Part shown: positions 12,001-54,000 of the stretch, in pieces
Layout of the letters: each line of letters starts with the position of its first letter
Position numbering within the stretch: position 1 is the stretch's first letter
NCBI RefSeq assembly: GCF_006345805.1
Contig: NC_042997.1
Location: 95,604,001 to 95,668,000, forward strand
Source of the DNA: Octopus sinensis
Taxonomy: Eukaryota
DNA length: 64,000 nt
Direction: 5' to 3'
Program-made: the position numbers

Positions 12001-15000
12001 GGCTGTATCTGATCCGTTGCCAAAATGTTGTCTATAAATAAATGCTTCATAGGACATTGGAATTAAGGTACAGAACTTCAATCGCATAAAAAAACAAACA
12101 AGAGCATACAATATAAACAATGGAAGAAGGAAAAGGAAAGTCAAGACGCCCAATATGGTACAAGAGTGACCTAGTAATGGTGTAGGGAATGCTACAATTT
12201 ATTAAGAGGTAGATGCAATTTAAAGGGAGGTGAGGATGTTTAAAAAAGAGGTTATCAAGGAAATGTATTAAAGGAACATGCTAACATGATTATCAAAGGG
12301 TGGTACATATGCTAACGCAGTAAACTGAAGTAAATGTAAATAATTACCGTGGGGTGCATACGAAAATTATGCTTTTAATATTTTGGGCTTCTAGATTTTT
12401 TTCTGGACCACGTTTTCTTTCCTTTTCCTTCTTCCCTTTGTTTATATTGTATGCTCTTGTTTTTACTCTGATGAAGCTCCGTGCTATAATTCGAATGTCG
12501 TATGAAATGAAGAAATTTATTCTCGCATTTATGGTTCATTCACTACACCTGTTTCCAGTGGGATTTTTAATAGGTGTATTGAGAAATAACATCATACGAA
12601 AGAAGCTTCTGCATTTGGAGAATATACACGAATTACACATTTAAAAGTTATTCTAAAAATCATTTGTTTGTGCTACTCCATGATTCCCTGATCAATAATA
12701 TGCATTTTAGCAACGGATCGGAAACGGCCGTAAGATATGTTACGTCACCTATTTGTTATGCCATGCTTTGTATTAAAAAATAAGCTATAAATGTCCTCCA
12801 ATCGATGTGTTGGTTAATTTGAGGTTTTCTCCATTTTCTGATTATTTGCATTGGTTCCGGTTAAATTCTTGTATATACTGCTGTTACCTGCATTCTACGT
12901 GTTTGGTATGCCTACACACCAATGCTCTGGGATAATACGGGTAACATATACCAATAGTGTATACGGATATTTTATCCCTTGGTCGGTTATTATAACTGCT
13001 AACACTTTTACACACACACATACTCTCTATCTCTCTCTCTCTGTCTTTCCATCGGTATATATATTATATAATATATATTTTATATACATATATATAATAG
13101 AAACATGTTTCAAAAAGAAAACTAGAAACTACATGTGGGAAAGATATGGTAATGTTAGAAGAAAAAGCGAAAATGCACATTGGATATAAAAAATGAGAGG
13201 CTTTTTTTATGAAAAGTAACGATAAATATATACAATTAGATATATTAGATATATATACATACATATATACATCCATATACATACAATATATAATATATAT
13301 ATAAATTTAGATAAATAGATAGATAGTAGCATACATATGCACATGTATGTATATATATATATATATATATATATATAATATATATATATATATAGAGAGA
13401 GAGAGAGAGAGAGAGAGAGAAAGAAAGAAAGAAAGAAAGAGGGATCTTTTTAAGCTTTATTCTTTGCAAGTGTCCTTATTTATCGGGAATTTAAGAGAGC
13501 ATTTGAAAATATTTTCACTTTCATATAAATGTGCTGAATAATAAATACGTAAACTACCTTTCTTTCTTTAGCAATATATTTTGATATCCGCGATGCAATA
13601 AGCATCAATATGCTTATAGAGAGAACAAAATATATTAATATAGCCCAGTCATTCACATACTTTTGATTACGACTATATGTAATTACTAATTTATATTTTT
13701 GCAGCAAACGTATCTTGCTATCATTAAAAATCAAAGGTAAACGTGCAGGAGAAACTCGAAGTCGAAATAAAGTGAATTATTTCTTTCATTCTTTAGCTTC
13801 TGTGCGTTTAAATTACGGAAACACCTTTTGCAAGCATTGCTATTCATAAATATATATATTCTAGATATATTTACATCTATTTTTCCCGATTTTATCTCTG
13901 TTTACGCATATAGTACGCTGTATTTGATCTCTTCAAGTTCAAAATTTACATGTGACTCCAAAATTTTCCACCCAAATAATATATTCGGAAGTTTTCATGA
14001 ACCGGAAATGCTAACGCACTCGCACACTCACACACACATACACACACAAGCACACGCACACACCACACTCACAAACACACAAAACACACAAACACACACA
14101 CATATACGCAACACACGTATTGATTGAGAAATATTCTCCATATTTGCTGTAATTAATCACTCTTATATATATTACAAGAAAATGATTCAATTGTGAACCT
14201 GTTGTATCAGCTTGATAGAAAATGTTAATTTTCTTTGTAGCTCAATACATTTAGATAAGTGGCATACGAGTGGATATATATTTATAAAAGAGAAGTTTAA
14301 AATATAAATTTTAATTTTCATAGAGATTTTATATGTTTCGGTTCTTCTTGAAAAAGCGAACCATATCAAAAAATATTTTAAAAAAGTTAAGTGTAATAAA
14401 AAAAAGTTCATAATTGTTTCTTACTAGTCTCAACGGAGTCCACGTCGTGGTGTTTTGTTTGTGGGGTGCATAATAGCTGTATTGTGCGTTGACTAGCTAG
14501 TCAACGCTCAAGAAGAACCGAAGCATGTAAAATCTCTAAGAAAATTAAAATTTGTCTTATATAGTGGCGTTTTCAAACTTCTTATATATATATATATATA
14601 TATATATATATATAGTGTGTGTGGTATATATATAAATATATATATGTATATATATATATATATATATATATATATATATATAATAATAAAATATTAGGGA
14701 ATATATCCAAATTTACAGGAAAAAAAATCAGATTTAGGATTAAACCAATTTTATAGTAAAATATTATAAAATATTATTTGAGACAAAACCACTATTTTGC
14801 AAAACAAACAAGGAAAGACTTAATCAATACAAAATTTAATAAATAGTCTATTATAAATTTTATGTATTGATTAAGTCTTTCCTGTTTGTTTTGCAAAATA
14901 GTGGTTTTGTCTCAAATAATATTTTATATATATATATATATATATATATATATATACCCTTCACTTACCCACACGTCCCCATCCGGATATTCCAACTCTT

Positions 15001-51000: not shown

Positions 51001-54000
51001 TACGCAAGCTTCTTATCAGACAGCCAAAACTATATGTATATATATGTGTGTGTGCGTGTGTATGTGTGTTTGTGTGTGTGTCTGTAAAATTAATAATTAT
51101 ATATATATAATTTAATAATTTAGTATATAAATTGTTATAAATTGTTTTTCCCTGCTGACTACTTGATAATTATTAAAATTATTTTTATCCTTATTTCATA
51201 TAGATGGCCAGATAACCGAAGAGATGGTGTTGTGGATTTCCACTTCGGCATCTGAAACTCAGAGTTTTATCTTGACTATTGAGTAATTGTAACATATTAT
51301 TTTATAGATAAATTTCCTCTATTTACACAATTTTGAGGTCTCTTTCTTTCTTTTGTTATCTTACCGTTTTTACCAATATGTATATATATATATATATATA
51401 TATATATATATATATATATATATATATATATAATATATATATATACGAATATAAACAAAGAAGGGTAATAATATAGATTACTACCAGTGGCTCAGCACAA
51501 AAGACAAATTAGTCATTAAACAAAATATTATTCATATAGAAAAATATTATTCATGTAGAAATATAATTAAGGGCTCCTAAATAAGGATGCCAAGTGCTGG
51601 GAACACAAAAAGGAGATAAATTTATTGAGAGTGAAAATCAAAAACATTTACCGATAACTTTACATCTCGAGATGTAAAGTTATCGGTAAATGTTTTTGAT
51701 TTTCACTCTCGATAAAGTTATCTCCTTTTTGTGTTCCCAGCACTTGGCATCCTTATGTAGGAACCCTTAATTATATTTCTCTCTCTCTCTCTCTCTTCTC
51801 TCTCTCTCTCTCTCTCTCTCTATCTATCTATCTATCTATCTATATATATATATATAATATATATATATATATATATATATATATATATATATATATACGA
51901 GGGGCGTTCAGTAAGTAATGCCCCTGACCCACTTCCCATAGCATTAGAGCAACGAAACTTGGCACAGTTAGTAGTCTTTTTCTACATAGGAACCACCCAG
52001 AGTTACGCAGTTCTCCCATCGTTTAATGCAGCGCTGGAGACCGTTTTTGTAGAAGACCCCAGCTTGGTCCTCCAACCACGACGTGACTTTAGAAATCAAG
52101 GCTGCATCATCTGTGAAATGCTTTCCTTTCAAAAACAACTTCATGGCTGGGAAGAGGTGAAAATCAGAGGGTGCAAGGTCAGGAGCGTAGGGGTGGGGGA
52201 GGAGTTCATAGCAGTACGCCTGTGCTTCTGATCTGGCGACACGCGAGTTGTGGACCGGAGCGTTGTCCTGCAGGAGGAGGATGCCTTTGCTGATCTTGCC
52301 CCACCTCTTGATTTTGATAGCTTCTCTTAATTTCCTCAAAAGTGAAGCATAATAGGCTCCTATAATTGTGGTACCCTTTGCCAGGAAATCTGTCATCACT
52401 ACTCCGTCCTGATCCCAGAAGACTGTGAGCATGACCATCCCAGCGGAGGGCTGCACCCTTGCCTTCTTTGGAGGAGGTGAGTCACCGTGCTTCCACTGCA
52501 TTGACTGAATCATAGTGATGGACCCAGGTTTCATCCTGTGTAATCAGTCTTTTGAAAAATTTTGACTCATCTTCTTGGCACATCTCCAAATTCATCCTCG
52601 AGCACTCGACACGTTCTTGCTTCTGGAAAGGTGTGAGCAACCTGGGAATCCATCTGGCAGACACCTTTTGCATATGCAAATGGTCATGAATGATAGTTTC
52701 CACAGACCCGGTACTAATCTTGACCTCATGGGCTATTTGGCGAATAGTTATGCATCGATCTTCCAAAATGGCAGCCTCAACTTGATGGACAGATGCCTCA
52801 TCAATGGCAGAAGGGGGTGACCAGATCTGGGAGCTGTTTCCACAGAGTTCCGACCATGGTTGAATTCACGATGCCAGCGTTTTACAAGGTAATATGATGG
52901 GGCATCATCACCATAAGTTACTTTCATTTCATCAAAAGTCTCCTGTGGTGTGCGTCCTTTCAAATACAAAAACCGGATCACTGCTCGACACTCAACAGGC
53001 TCCATTTCACACTTGACTCAGTTCAAACACCTGTAAATCAGGAACCACAATTAGCTCAGAGCTGTAATTTGCCACCTAATCTATAGAGATATAAATAATT
53101 GCACATGCAAAGTTACAGCTAGATCAAATAACTGCAATTGGGTCAGAGGCATTACTTATTGAACGTCCCTCGTATATATATATATGTATATATATATATA
53201 TATATATATAAAGAGCGAGAGAGAGAGAGAGAGAGAGCGAGAGAGAGGGAGAGAGAGAGGGGGAGAGTGAGAGAGACAGAGACAGACTGAGAAATGGTGA
53301 TGTTAAGGCATTGGAATGGTAAAACATAAACACAATTGTTCTTGCCAATTTGTCTTTGTACATGTGAATGGCAGGGCATCGTTAGTCATGGTATTTCCCC
53401 GCATTCCGCACTACCTGTGAGGGAAGAAGCTGGACTTTCTTTCCAATGGAATTCATCTTGCAGAAGAATAAATCGACCAGCTTATCCAACTGGTTACTTA
53501 TGACTCGGCGCAAAACCTAAATATTAGGCGAGATTATAATACATAGGTGATATATGCGTTAGTCAACTTTGTCTAGGAATCCGAAATAGCTTCGTATCAA
53601 GACACGTATATGTGCAAATGTCATTCTGTACTTCTTTTGTTCTGGTTTCTTTCTAAATGAACATTGGAATGAAGTAGAATTTTAGGATCTGAACCTGACC
53701 CTCGACTCAGCAGTAGGTATTAGCCAAACTCCAATAATACTATTATGTACAAAACGTGATAACGAAAATAAAATCCTCGTCTCGATCTCAAAAATCTGCA
53801 TTAATTCCATTATATAACCAAAATAGATACAACCCGCAATTTATGAATGACATTTTAGATTCATGAATATAGATCACACAGAGACTGTTTAGGCAGAAAC
53901 ACATAACTAAAATTTCCAAACGTCAATAATTATATGACAAAATGACACAATACTCTAAACGTTATTGATTCTACATGCTTCCCACTGATATTACCGCTGT

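What the first reader, a model, noticed from the sequence alone, without database searches (positions are those of the whole stretch)
14170..51780. Six asymmetric fold-back elements in (TA)n, all with the longer arm on the left
Seen: inverted repeats at 14291-14582, 14765-14928, 26351-26513, 30102-31086, 33344-33603 and 51557-51780. They share no sequence, but each has one arm extended by ~60-120 bp toward a TA-rich tract, and two clearly include HHRs. Established: PLE insertions often have inverted 5'-truncated pLTRs. Inference: a diverse set of TA-targeted, ribozyme-processed non-autonomous retroelements (retrozyme-like) using one snap-back integration mechanism. If transcribed they would form long dsRNA, possible ADAR or small-RNA substrates. 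The shared orientation may be chance or reflect a host transcription direction.
Basis: partly seen in the sequence, partly recalled or inferred. Interest (0 to 1): 0.72.

Follow-up and report, generated by a model that had tools for sequence, protein, structure and literature searches.

The report
Penelope-type fold-back insertions in TA repeats
Six hairpin-shaped insertions in TA repeats are real; one is demonstrably the lopsided head-to-head insertion that Penelope-like retrotransposons are known to leave, the other five match it only by shape, and none contains a ribozyme.

Summary
All six inverted repeats exist at the stated coordinates and are far beyond chance: palindrome scores are 65-1488 against a null of 28 +/- 3.7.

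The right arm abuts a (TA)n tract in 5 of 6, where a random position does so with P = 0.023. The left arm lies 64-111 bp from a tract in E2-E6. The asymmetry is clear for E4-E6, probable for E2-E3 and doubtful for E1.

E4 (30032-31086) is a Penelope-like element (PLE):
- Its longer copy carries 91 codons of a GIY-YIG endonuclease C-terminus, with 135 homologues. The motifs fit the (TA)n-targeting "Hydra" clade (PMC8557442).
- Two solo 5'-truncated copies (51207-51380, 33170-33245) share its tail-bearing 3' end at (TA)n.

This architecture is already described for PLEs: a head-to-head inverted 5'-truncated copy with a tail at one end (PMC8557442, PMC3846280, PMC11167929).

The other five share no sequence with E4 or each other and have no coding signal, so their PLE origin rests on analogy.

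No hammerhead ribozyme was found in any of the six. Four hammerhead-like motifs lie elsewhere in the window.

The shared orientation is weak evidence (6 of 6; 6:2 once solo copies are counted).

Verdict: a known kind of element. The retrozyme and ribozyme parts of the interpretation are not supported.

The parts
30032..30662 (-). E4 main copy. A 5'-truncated Hydra-like PLE on the minus strand: ORF C-terminus (30664-30389), stop codon, then a ~354-nt 3'UTR. The last 70 nt of the UTR (30101-30032) are the 'tail' that abuts (TA)n 30004-30031.
30663..31086 (+). E4 inverted copy, head-to-head with the main copy. It is more 5'-truncated and lacks the 70-nt tail. It ends flush with (TA)n 31086-31103.
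30389..30691 (-). Open frame P0001 (101 aa). Residues ~10-98 match the C-terminal half of GIY-YIG endonuclease domains (CxxC..E..N..CxH). Homology begins at the head-to-head junction.
51207..51380 (+). Solo 5'-truncated copy of the E4 family: the terminal ~95 nt of the arm plus the tail. Its 3' end abuts (TA)n 51381-51445.
33170..33245 (+). Solo copy of the E4 family, shorter still (essentially the tail only). Its 3' end abuts (TA)n 33247-33279.
14173..14582 (.). E1: putative tail 14173-14290 plus inverted repeat 14291-14582 (core arms 14306-14351 / 14508-14553, loop 156 nt). Its asymmetry is doubtful because a (TA)4 at 14274-14281 lies next to the left arm.
14683..14928 (.). E2: 82-nt left extension plus a 164-bp near-perfect hairpin (14765-14928, loop 1 nt). 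The right end is flush with (TA)16.
26258..26517 (.). E3: 89-nt left extension plus an older hairpin (26347-26517, 78% arm identity, loop 20 nt). The right end is flush with a TA tract.
33280..33603 (.). E5: 64-nt left extension plus a 260-bp hairpin (33344-33603, 91% arm identity, loop ~21 nt). The right end is flush with a TA tract; the left boundary is not AT-rich.
51446..51780 (.). E6: 111-nt left extension plus a 224-bp perfect-centred palindrome (51557-51780, 96% arm identity, loop 0 nt). The right end abuts (CT)n, followed by (ATCT)n and (TA)n.

Best explanation
The six elements are best read as dead-on-arrival insertions of six unrelated families of Penelope-like retrotransposons (PLEs) into (TA)n microsatellites.

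**Proposed sequence of events**
1. A PLE GIY-YIG endonuclease cuts the TA tract.
2. A 3'-OH of the tract primes reverse transcription from the 3' end of the element RNA. This produces the copy that carries the full 3' end, the 'tail', next to the left TA tract.
3. Synthesis stops early, giving a 5'-truncated copy.
4. A second, inverted copy forms head-to-head by one of two routes. Either the cDNA 3' end snaps back and copies itself, or the other cut strand primes on a second RNA at an internal start site.
5. This second copy lacks the last 64-111 nt and is joined flush to the TA tract on the other side.

**Shown**
- The E4 structure and its strand polarity.
- E4's PLE-type endonuclease fragment.
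- The common 3' end of three E4-family copies at (TA)n.
- The flush-on-one-side, offset-on-the-other geometry.

**Inferred**
- That E1, E2, E3, E5 and E6 are PLE products too.
- Which of the two routes made the second arm.
For: **E4 is a PLE**
- The minus-strand frame 30691-30389 finds 135 proteins at E <= 1e-3. The best is P0003, at 2.2e-13 and 42% identity. All match at their C-termini.
- The homologues show a CxCx5C linker, (V)VY..YIG..F(K)xR..NH, a CxxC before a conserved E, and a CxH after a conserved N. This is the motif set that PMC8557442 section 11 gives for the Hydra clade. [quoted passage not shown]
- Homologue P0119 (669 aa) carries upstream motifs that I read as reverse transcriptase, such as YRDDG.
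- Its Atlas look-alikes carry RVT_1 (40-78% of members) and GIY-YIG (21-31% of members).
- An AlphaFold model of homologue P0024 has pLDDT 83. Eleven of its first 12 Foldseek PDB hits are GIY-YIG nucleases (I-TevI prob 0.82, T4 EndoII prob 0.87, UvrC), although E-values are only 0.14-1.5.
- tblastn homology starts at 30664, exactly at the head-to-head junction 30662/30663.
- Three copies share the tail-bearing 3' end at (TA)n with nested 5' truncations of 631, ~174 and ~76 bp.

**Geometry of the set**
- Five of 6 right ends are flush with (TA)n, where random positions give P = 0.023. Left ends are offset by 64-111 bp in E2-E6.
- A mariner-like DNA transposon in the same window (51898-53172) is flush with (TA)n on both sides. 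The one-sidedness is therefore not a general property of insertions into TA tracts.

**Literature (sections or passages seen)**
- PMC8557442 section 6: PLE insertions are often 5'-truncated, often have an inverted 5'-truncated copy at the 5' end, and have a 30-40 bp tail at one end only.
- PMC3846280: a 31-bp tail at the 3' end of one inverted pLTR; head-to-head is the commonest arrangement; self-priming is proposed.
- PMC11167929: a purified PLE protein cuts and extends both strands of AT-rich DNA. It starts reverse transcription at two internal sites, and the tail is the sequence between them.

**Other points**
- Arm divergence of 78-98% shows old, independent events.
- Loops of <= 21 nt in 4 of 6 elements (E2, E3, E5, E6) fit self-priming.
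Against: - Only E4 is tied to a PLE by sequence.
- The other five have no protein similarity: all 176 tblastn HSPs fall within 30299-30781.
- They have no open frame from the junction (<= 18 codons).
- They share no similarity with E4 or with each other, and have no second copy in the window.
- The tails are 64-111 nt, two to three times the 30-40 bp described for PLEs.
- For E1-E3 the left boundary is AT-rich, so a two-sided TA insertion cannot be excluded.
- Pfam does not call RVT_1 in P0119 even at E <= 10. It calls GIY-YIG only below threshold, in 2 of 20 homologues.
- A PDB profile search found nothing relevant.
- No Foldseek match has E <= 0.001.
- The Hydra-clade assignment rests on motif descriptions, not on a phylogeny.
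Confidence: 0.62

Rival explanations
1. Non-transposon fold-back repair. (TA)n tracts are fragile. After a break at the edge of a tract, the resected 3' end snaps back on nearby unique DNA and copies it. It is then rejoined to the tract by TA microhomology, in the manner of polymerase-theta end joining. Under this reading, 'tail + left arm + loop' is original local sequence and only the right arm is new. This would apply to some or all of E1, E2, E3, E5 and E6.
For: - It gives the same geometry: flush on the newly made side, offset on the other.
- The arm without a tail ends at a TA-like or 2-7 nt microhomology in about 5 of 6 elements (read).
- None of these five has a second copy in the window or any coding signal.
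- Loops are small (0-21 nt) in E2, E3, E5 and E6.
Against: - E4 has the identical architecture and is certainly a retroelement. Its inverted arm starts exactly at the 5'-truncation point.
- From general knowledge, not tested here: templated snap-back insertions are usually tens of nucleotides long, not 75-424.
- Six events in 38 kb, all next to TA tracts that are also hit by E4-family copies, fits an active TA-targeting machine better.
Confidence: 0.15
2. Hairpin MITEs. On this reading they are non-autonomous cut-and-paste DNA transposons of Tc1/mariner (Stowaway-like) type that insert at TA. The left 'extensions' would be unrelated sequence between the element and the next TA tract.
For: - The window holds a mariner-like element inserted in (TA)n (Transposase_1, E = 1.9e-20).
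- E1, E2 and E3 have AT-rich sequence at the left arm boundary.
- E2 is a compact 164-bp palindrome of typical MITE size.
Against: - E4's extension is part of the element, because it is contiguous with the arm in a second copy.
- E5 and E6 have no TA at the left boundary.
- No terminus resembles the mariner TIRs: scores of 8-14 against a shuffle mean of about 10.
- A true TA-targeting DNA transposon in the same window is flush on both sides, unlike these elements.
Confidence: 0.12
3. They are ribozyme-processed, non-autonomous, retrozyme-like retroelements whose hairpin is part of the propagating unit.
For: - Hammerhead-like motifs are enriched in the window: 4 observed against 0.18 expected. 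One, at 26742-26833, lies 230 bp from E3.
- The abstract of bioRxiv 10.64898/2026.07.22.740005 argues that animal retrozymes derive from PLE pLTRs.
Against: - No hammerhead was found inside any of the six elements.
- There are no tandem or direct HHR-bearing repeats.
- In the one family with several copies, the fold-back is present in 1 of 3 copies. It was therefore made at insertion rather than inherited.
Confidence: 0.07
4. Assembly or library fold-back chimeras.
For: PMC8557442 (section 6) notes that complex PLE structures often cause problems in shotgun assemblies.
Against: - The arms have diverged (78-98% identity, with indels).
- The elements are short, internal to the contig and embedded between TA tracts.
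- An artefact would give near-identical arms.
Confidence: 0.02

Closest known systems
Hydra-clade Penelope-like elements (Craig et al. 2021, PMC8557442, section 11 read)
   Same: - C-terminal GIY-YIG endonuclease.
- CxCx5C linker in the homologues.
- No cysteines between the GIY and YIG motifs.
- CxxC and CxH around the conserved E and N. The E4 fragment itself contains these two motifs.
- Insertion into (TA)n.
   Different: - Only the last 91 codons are present in the window.
- Clade membership was not tested by phylogeny.
- No hammerhead is present, as expected for a 5'-truncated copy.
General PLE insertion architecture: inverted 5'-truncated copy plus a one-sided 'tail' (PMC8557442 section 6; PMC3846280 passages)
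   Same: - Head-to-head inverted copies.
- High 5' truncation.
- The extension is present at only one outer end.
- Small palindromic junctions.
   Different: - The tails here are 64-111 nt, against 30-40 bp (31 bp in Adineta vaga).
- The insertions are tiny (164-985 bp of inverted repeat) and have no direct pLTR.
Poseidon PAc in vitro (Frangieh et al. 2024, PMC11167929, main text read)
   Same: - Cleavage of AT-rich DNA on both strands and extension of both.
- Two alternative reverse-transcription start sites, with the tail being the sequence between them.
- HHR cleavage was not needed for insertion in vitro.
   Different: - PAc initiates at sites with no homology to the target. Here the tail-less arm often ends at a TA-like patch.
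- It belongs to a different clade and host.
- Nothing was tested biochemically here.
Animal non-LTR retrozymes (abstract of bioRxiv 10.64898/2026.07.22.740005)
   Same: Thought to be non-autonomous derivatives of PLEs.
   Different: Retrozymes are tandem direct repeats, each with a hammerhead. The six elements are inverted repeats without hammerheads.
Stowaway-like / mariner-derived MITEs (general knowledge)
   Same: - Short AT-rich hairpin-forming elements next to TA.
- Likely to be annotated as MITEs by automatic tools.
   Different: - One-sided flushness.
- E4 carries a retroelement ORF.
- No TIR similarity to the resident mariner.

Membership tests
Penelope-like element (C-terminal EN+, Hydra-like) | Encodes a GIY-YIG endonuclease of PLE type | tested here: met
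   This holds for E4 only.
- P0001 hits 135 proteins.
- The alignment keeps T, L, S, W, CxxC, E, N and CxH.
- For the homologue model, 11 of the first 12 PDB fold hits are GIY-YIG nucleases, but with E >= 0.14.
- Pfam calls GIY-YIG only below threshold, in 2 of 20 homologues.
Penelope-like element (C-terminal EN+, Hydra-like) | Reverse transcriptase upstream of the endonuclease in the same ORF | tested here: inconclusive
   - The RT is absent from the window because the copy is 5'-truncated.
- Homologue P0119 shows RT-like motifs by my reading, and its Atlas look-alikes carry RVT_1.
- Pfam finds no RVT_1 in P0119 at E <= 10.
Penelope-like element (C-terminal EN+, Hydra-like) | Hydra motif set: CxCx5C linker, no CCHH in the GIY-YIG core, CxxC and CxH flanking E and N | tested here: met
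   - All are seen in the homologues.
- The E4 fragment covers only the CxxC..E..N..CxH part.
- The motif list is taken from PMC8557442 section 11.
- No phylogeny was run.
Penelope-like element (C-terminal EN+, Hydra-like) | Insertion into (TA)n | tested here: met
   - All 4 E4-family 3' ends abut TA tracts.
- 5 of 6 fold-backs are flush with (TA)n on the right, against a random P of 0.023.
Penelope-like element (C-terminal EN+, Hydra-like) | 5'-truncation series sharing one 3' end | tested here: met
   - E4 family: copies of 631, ~174 and ~76 bp share one 3' end.
- For the other five elements this is not testable, because there are no other copies in the window.
Penelope-like element (C-terminal EN+, Hydra-like) | Inverted 5'-truncated copy head-to-head, with a tail at one outer end only | tested here: met
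   - E4: polarity is proven by the ORF.
- E5 and E6 show the same geometry clearly, E2 and E3 probably, and E1 doubtfully.
- Tail length is 64-111 nt, against 30-40 bp in the literature.
Penelope-like element (C-terminal EN+, Hydra-like) | Hammerhead ribozyme in the pLTR | tested here: not met
   - None is present in the six elements.
- This is expected if the copies are 5'-truncated and lack a pLTR, so it does not exclude membership.
- Rfam also missed my motif-level candidates elsewhere in the scanned stretches, so it is insensitive to minimal HHRs.
Penelope-like element (any clade): E1, E2, E3, E5, E6 | Sequence link to a PLE (coding or terminal) | tested here: not met
   - tblastn with 135 homologues hits only E4.
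- No open frame runs from the junction.
- No similarity to E4.
- A genome-wide test was not possible.
Animal non-LTR retrozyme | Tandem or direct repeats each carrying a hammerhead ribozyme | tested here: not met
   The repeats are inverted, not direct. There is no HHR.
Animal non-LTR retrozyme | Self-cleaved, circularised RNA | not testable with these tools
   No RNA data were available.
Tc1/mariner-derived MITE (Stowaway-like) | Terminal inverted repeats flush with a TA target duplication on both sides | tested here: not met
   - E4, E5 and E6 are flush on one side only.
- E1-E3 are inconclusive because their left boundary is AT-rich.
- The resident mariner-like element is flush on both sides.
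Tc1/mariner-derived MITE (Stowaway-like) | TIR similarity to an autonomous partner | tested here: not met
   No terminus resembles the TIRs of the one mariner-like element in the window. Other partners in the genome could not be tested.

The most novel reading that the evidence does not exclude
The fold-backs could be a guild of non-autonomous hairpin retroelements rather than accidents of insertion. On this reading each keeps only a long (64-111 nt) 3' recognition tail plus a self-complementary body, and each is mobilised by (TA)n-targeting Hydra-type PLE enzymes. The uniform tail-left orientation across 38 kb would then record a strand preference of priming relative to replication or transcription direction. 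If transcribed, such a guild would seed long dsRNA hairpins next to TA repeats throughout the genome.
Probability: 0.1. Interest if true: 0.7.

Novelty: new member of a known kind. Interest (0 to 1): 0.36.

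Why it matters
**Annotation.**
- These insertions mimic MITEs and miRNA precursors. E6 scores 100 bits against a plant MIR model and E5 scores 80 bits, both below gathering thresholds.
- Automatic pipelines may therefore misfile PLE debris.

**Mechanism.**
- The loci are a natural record of PLE integration.
- Three E4-family copies start at one site and one starts 70 nt inside it, which parallels the two start sites seen in vitro (PMC11167929).
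- The 0-21 nt loops in four elements favour cDNA self-priming, which is still unproven for PLEs.
- Tails two to three times the described length would widen what counts as a PLE 'tail'.

**Biology.**
- Arms of 75-424 bp would give long dsRNA if transcribed. That would matter in a host with heavy RNA editing or small-RNA silencing.
- Nothing here shows transcription.

Tried and rejected
**Hammerhead searches**
- Rfam at gathering thresholds gave 0 hits.
- At E <= 5 over the whole window there were 179 matches. Of these, 150 were listed and none was a hammerhead; 29 were not shown.
- Four targeted scans at E <= 10 gave 26, 14, 28 and 76 matches, none a hammerhead. Most were TA-rich or hairpin miRNA noise.
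- These scans also failed to report my own HHR-like motifs at 26742-26833 and 46709-46756, so a negative Rfam result is weak for minimal HHRs.

**Protein searches**
- Word-indexed searches with P0001 found nothing, in either 'longer' or 'near' mode.
- The alignment search in 'longer' mode examined only proteins of 1172-3345 aa. It returned one coral gene model and was uninformative.
- A PDB profile search gave only a chance kinase-subunit hit at E = 0.41.
- Pfam on 93 window ORFs found no PLE domain.

**Ideas checked and dropped**
- A seventh fold-back at 21614-21797: it is a (TTATA)n satellite.
- A shared 3' motif among the six tails: none was found.
- Kinship with the mariner TIRs: none was found.

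**Not used or not possible**
- The host was not identified. My impression that a SINE-like repeat resembles cephalopod repeats is recalled, not tested.
- The supplements of PMC8557442, which hold the Hydra family lists and proteins, were not opened. They could bear on clade assignment.
Genome-wide copy numbers therefore stayed unchecked.

Full report
**Observation**

The window is AT-rich (GC about 0.28-0.43) and crowded with TA microsatellites. There are 111 merged tracts of at least 4 units, covering 5.0% of the sequence.

| Element | Arms / span | Identity | Loop |
|---|---|---|---|
| E1 | 14306-14351 / 14508-14553 | 93% | 156 nt |
| E2 | 14752-14846 / 14848-14942 | 90 of 99 columns | 1 nt |
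| E3 | 26347-26421 / 26442-26517 | 59 of 76 columns | 20 nt |
| E4 | 30102-30519 / 30663-31086 | 98.1% over 424 columns | 143 nt |
| E5 | 33344-33603 | 90.9% | ~21 nt (read) |
| E6 | 51557-51780 | 96.4% | 0 nt |

- Self-blastn finds E1, E4, E5 and E6. E2 and E3 were dust-masked there and were recovered by local alignment.
- Palindromic scores of 65-1488 compare with a null of 28.2 +/- 3.7 per 1600 bp, with a maximum of 38 in 150 simulations.
- As RNA, all six fold into long hairpins with z-scores from -11.5 to -72.8.
- The six share no sequence. All 15 pairwise scores are at shuffle level.
- A sliding scan of the whole window found no further TA-flanked fold-back. The one new candidate, 21614-21797, is a (TTATA)n satellite. 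Four other inverted repeats (1783-2388, 11775-12776, 12099-12459, 41887-41985) are not flanked by TA tracts.

**Asymmetry**

- Five of 6 right arm ends touch a TA tract (gap <= 0). A random position does so with P = 0.023. E6 abuts (CT)n, with (TA)n 60 bp further on.
- Left arm ends lie 9, 82, 89, 70, 64 and 111 bp from the nearest tract.
- The flank table shows a clean TA tract on the right and non-TA sequence on the left for E4 and E5.
- E6 is equally one-sided, but with (CT)n on the right.
- E2 and E3 have AT-rich left boundaries.
- E1 has a (TA)4 next to its left arm, so its 'extension' may simply be sequence between two tracts.
- The claim therefore holds clearly for three elements, probably for two, and doubtfully for one.
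- As an internal comparator, a mariner-like DNA transposon at 51898-53172 is flush with (TA)n on both sides (Transposase_1, E = 1.9e-20; TIRs).

**What E4 is**

- *Nested copies.* The left extension of E4 (30032-30101) together with the outer ~100 bp of its arm recurs as a single, non-inverted copy at 51207-51380. The extension alone recurs at 33170-33245. Both lie on the plus strand, and both end at a TA tract at the same terminal base as E4's left end.
- *Meaning.* Nested truncations that share one end are the signature of target-primed reverse transcription. They identify the extension as the element's 3' end, so the sense strand of E4's longer copy is the minus strand.
- *Open frame.* On that strand a frame runs from 30691 to 30389 (P0001). 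An exhaustive HMMER search found 135 proteins at E <= 1e-3, the best at 2.2e-13 and 42% identity. All match at their C-termini.
- *Homologue motifs.* The homologues show a CxCx5C motif, then VVY..YIG..FKxR..NH, then a TELSKHIW..LK block, then CxLCxxEK and LNxRxE..CxH.
- *Clade fit.* Craig et al. 2021 (PMC8557442, section 11 read) describe exactly this combination for their 'Hydra' clade. [quoted passage not shown] - *Supporting but weaker evidence.*
  - Pfam gives sub-threshold GIY-YIG hits in 2 of 20 homologues.
  - Atlas look-alikes of the 669-aa homologue P0119 carry RVT_1 and GIY-YIG.
  - An AlphaFold model of P0024 (pLDDT 83.3) has GIY-YIG nucleases as 11 of its first 12 PDB matches. E-values are only 0.14-1.5, and none is <= 0.001.
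  - Pfam does not call RVT_1 in P0119, so the reverse-transcriptase assignment rests on my reading of motifs plus the Atlas leads.
- *Junction.* tblastn places the start of homology at 30664, which is the junction between the 'loop' and the right arm.
- *Resulting structure.* E4 is a 631-bp 5'-truncated copy (30662 to 30032, minus strand) consisting of 91 codons, a stop and a ~354-nt 3'UTR. It is joined head-to-head to a 424-bp copy (30663 to 31086, plus strand). The second copy is more truncated at its 5' end and lacks the last 70 nt.

**Comparison with what is known**

This is the published PLE insertion architecture.

[quoted passage not shown] - PMC3846280 (passages seen): a 31-bp tail lies at the 3' end of one inverted pLTR, head-to-head is the commonest arrangement, and palindromic junctions are attributed to self-priming.
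- PMC11167929 (main text read): a purified Poseidon protein cleaves and extends both strands of AT-rich DNA. It starts reverse transcription at two internal RNA sites, the tail is the sequence between them, and hammerhead cleavage is not required in vitro.

The E4 family fits this. Three 3' ends use the outer start and one uses a start 70 nt inside.

Two things differ:
- Tail length is 64-111 nt rather than 30-40.
- The tail-less arm often ends in a TA-like patch or short microhomology with the flank (about 5 of 6, read). PAc initiation, by contrast, was reported as non-homologous.

**The other five elements**

- They have no protein similarity to the PLE set. All 176 tblastn HSPs from 135 queries fall within 30299-30781.
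- They have no open frame from the junction: at most 18 codons, against 91 in E4.
- They have no similarity to E4 and no second copy in the window.
- Their assignment to PLEs is an inference from shared geometry and from E4 as a worked example.
- If they are 3'UTR-only fragments of other families, this lack of signal is expected, but it is not evidence.
- Small loops in E2, E3, E5 and E6 (0-21 nt) argue for snap-back or template switching rather than two independent truncations.
- Two rivals stay open for these five. One is snap-back repair of non-transposon DNA at fragile TA tracts. The other is hairpin MITEs, a possibility mainly for E1-E3.
- Arm divergence of 78-98% with indels argues against assembly artefacts.

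**Hammerheads**

- None was found in the six elements.
- A strict type-I descriptor finds four motifs elsewhere in the window: 63-108 (+), 46709-46756 (+), 26833-26742 (-) and 39235-39167 (-). Simulations expect 0.18, and 0 of 60 simulations reached 4.
- Rfam does not report these motifs even in targeted scans, so they remain motif-level candidates.
- The 'retrozyme-like, ribozyme-processed' reading is therefore not supported. Absence of an HHR is expected for 5'-truncated copies that lack a pLTR.

**Orientation**

- All six have the extension on the left, which gives a two-sided p of 0.03 (own arithmetic, and post hoc).
- The two solo E4-family copies have their 3' ends on the right.
- That makes 6:2 (p of about 0.29). 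I treat the bias as unproven.

**Verdict**

- The elements are best explained as ordinary, though unusually compact and long-tailed, PLE insertion scars in (TA)n. This is proven for one element and inferred for five.
- Confidence is about 0.9 for E4 and about 0.6 for the whole set.
- Novelty: new members of a known kind.
- The decisive test is genome-wide copy structure for each family.

Noticed in passing
63-108 (+), 46709-46756 (+), 26742-26833 (-), 39167-39235 (-): Four type-I hammerhead-like motifs with a CUGANGA..GAAA..UH core and closing stems. Two have a 1-bp stem III with a short loop, as in PLE-type minimal HHRs. Four were observed against 0.18 expected (0 of 60 simulations reached 4). 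None is reported by Rfam, and none lies inside the six fold-backs. The one at 26742-26833 sits between TA/GA tracts 230 bp right of E3.
   Followed up: partly
51898-53172: Mariner-like DNA transposon, about 1275 bp, with ~35-bp TIRs and a Transposase_1 fragment (E = 1.9e-20). It sits in a (TA)n tract and is flush on both sides. The surrounding microsatellites are mirror-symmetric: (CT)n(TA)n on the left and (TA)n(GA)n on the right.
   Followed up: partly
44945-46453 (+): Four consecutive open-frame pieces (155, 93, 147 and 96 aa) with no Pfam hit. By recollection only, the last residues look like the C-terminus of a mariner-type transposase. This may be a second decayed DNA transposon.
   Followed up: no
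538-958, 5888-6220, 10727-11112, 33603-33810, 38290-38574, 39674-39952, 48412-48817, 50166-50588, 50594-51026, 63699-64000: A repeat of roughly 400 bp with at least ten copies (73-91% identity). It carries an internal TA / TG-rich microsatellite, so part of the window's TA-tract load is brought in by this element. One copy directly follows E5.
   Followed up: no
11775-12776: An inverted repeat not flanked by TA, in which the two arm segments are each inverted but keep the same order (A B ... A' B' instead of A B ... B' A'). It contains a nested 46-bp inverted repeat at 12096-12140 / 12417-12462.
   Followed up: no
23209-24448 (-): A retroelement remnant: a weak RVT_1 match (E = 1.5e-4, 24137-24448) followed by C2H2-type zinc-finger matches (23209-23667). 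It is unrelated to the E4 family by tblastn.
   Followed up: no
17494-17894, 28659-29177, 32784-33182: A three-copy repeat (88-100% identity), one copy inverted. The third copy ends next to the solo E4-family fragment at 33170.
   Followed up: no
33345-33602, 51582-51755, 14770-14923: The hairpins score well below gathering thresholds against plant miRNA precursor models in Rfam (MIR8562 80 bits, MIR6457 100 bits, MIR6217 44 bits). This is a warning that such scars can be mistaken for miRNA genes.
   Followed up: yes
33247-33279 and 51381-51445: In both places a solo E4-family copy and the tail of a different fold-back (E5, E6) face each other, 3' end to 3' end, across one TA tract. The same tracts were therefore hit repeatedly. 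Alternatively the arrangement has a cause that I did not identify.
   Followed up: partly
33969-34342; 55462-55537 and 56952-57027; 21614-21850: Three further repeats: a tandem repeat with a period of about 105 bp (91-94% identity), a 76-bp direct repeat that is 100% identical across 1.4 kb, and a (TTATA)n satellite.
   Followed up: no
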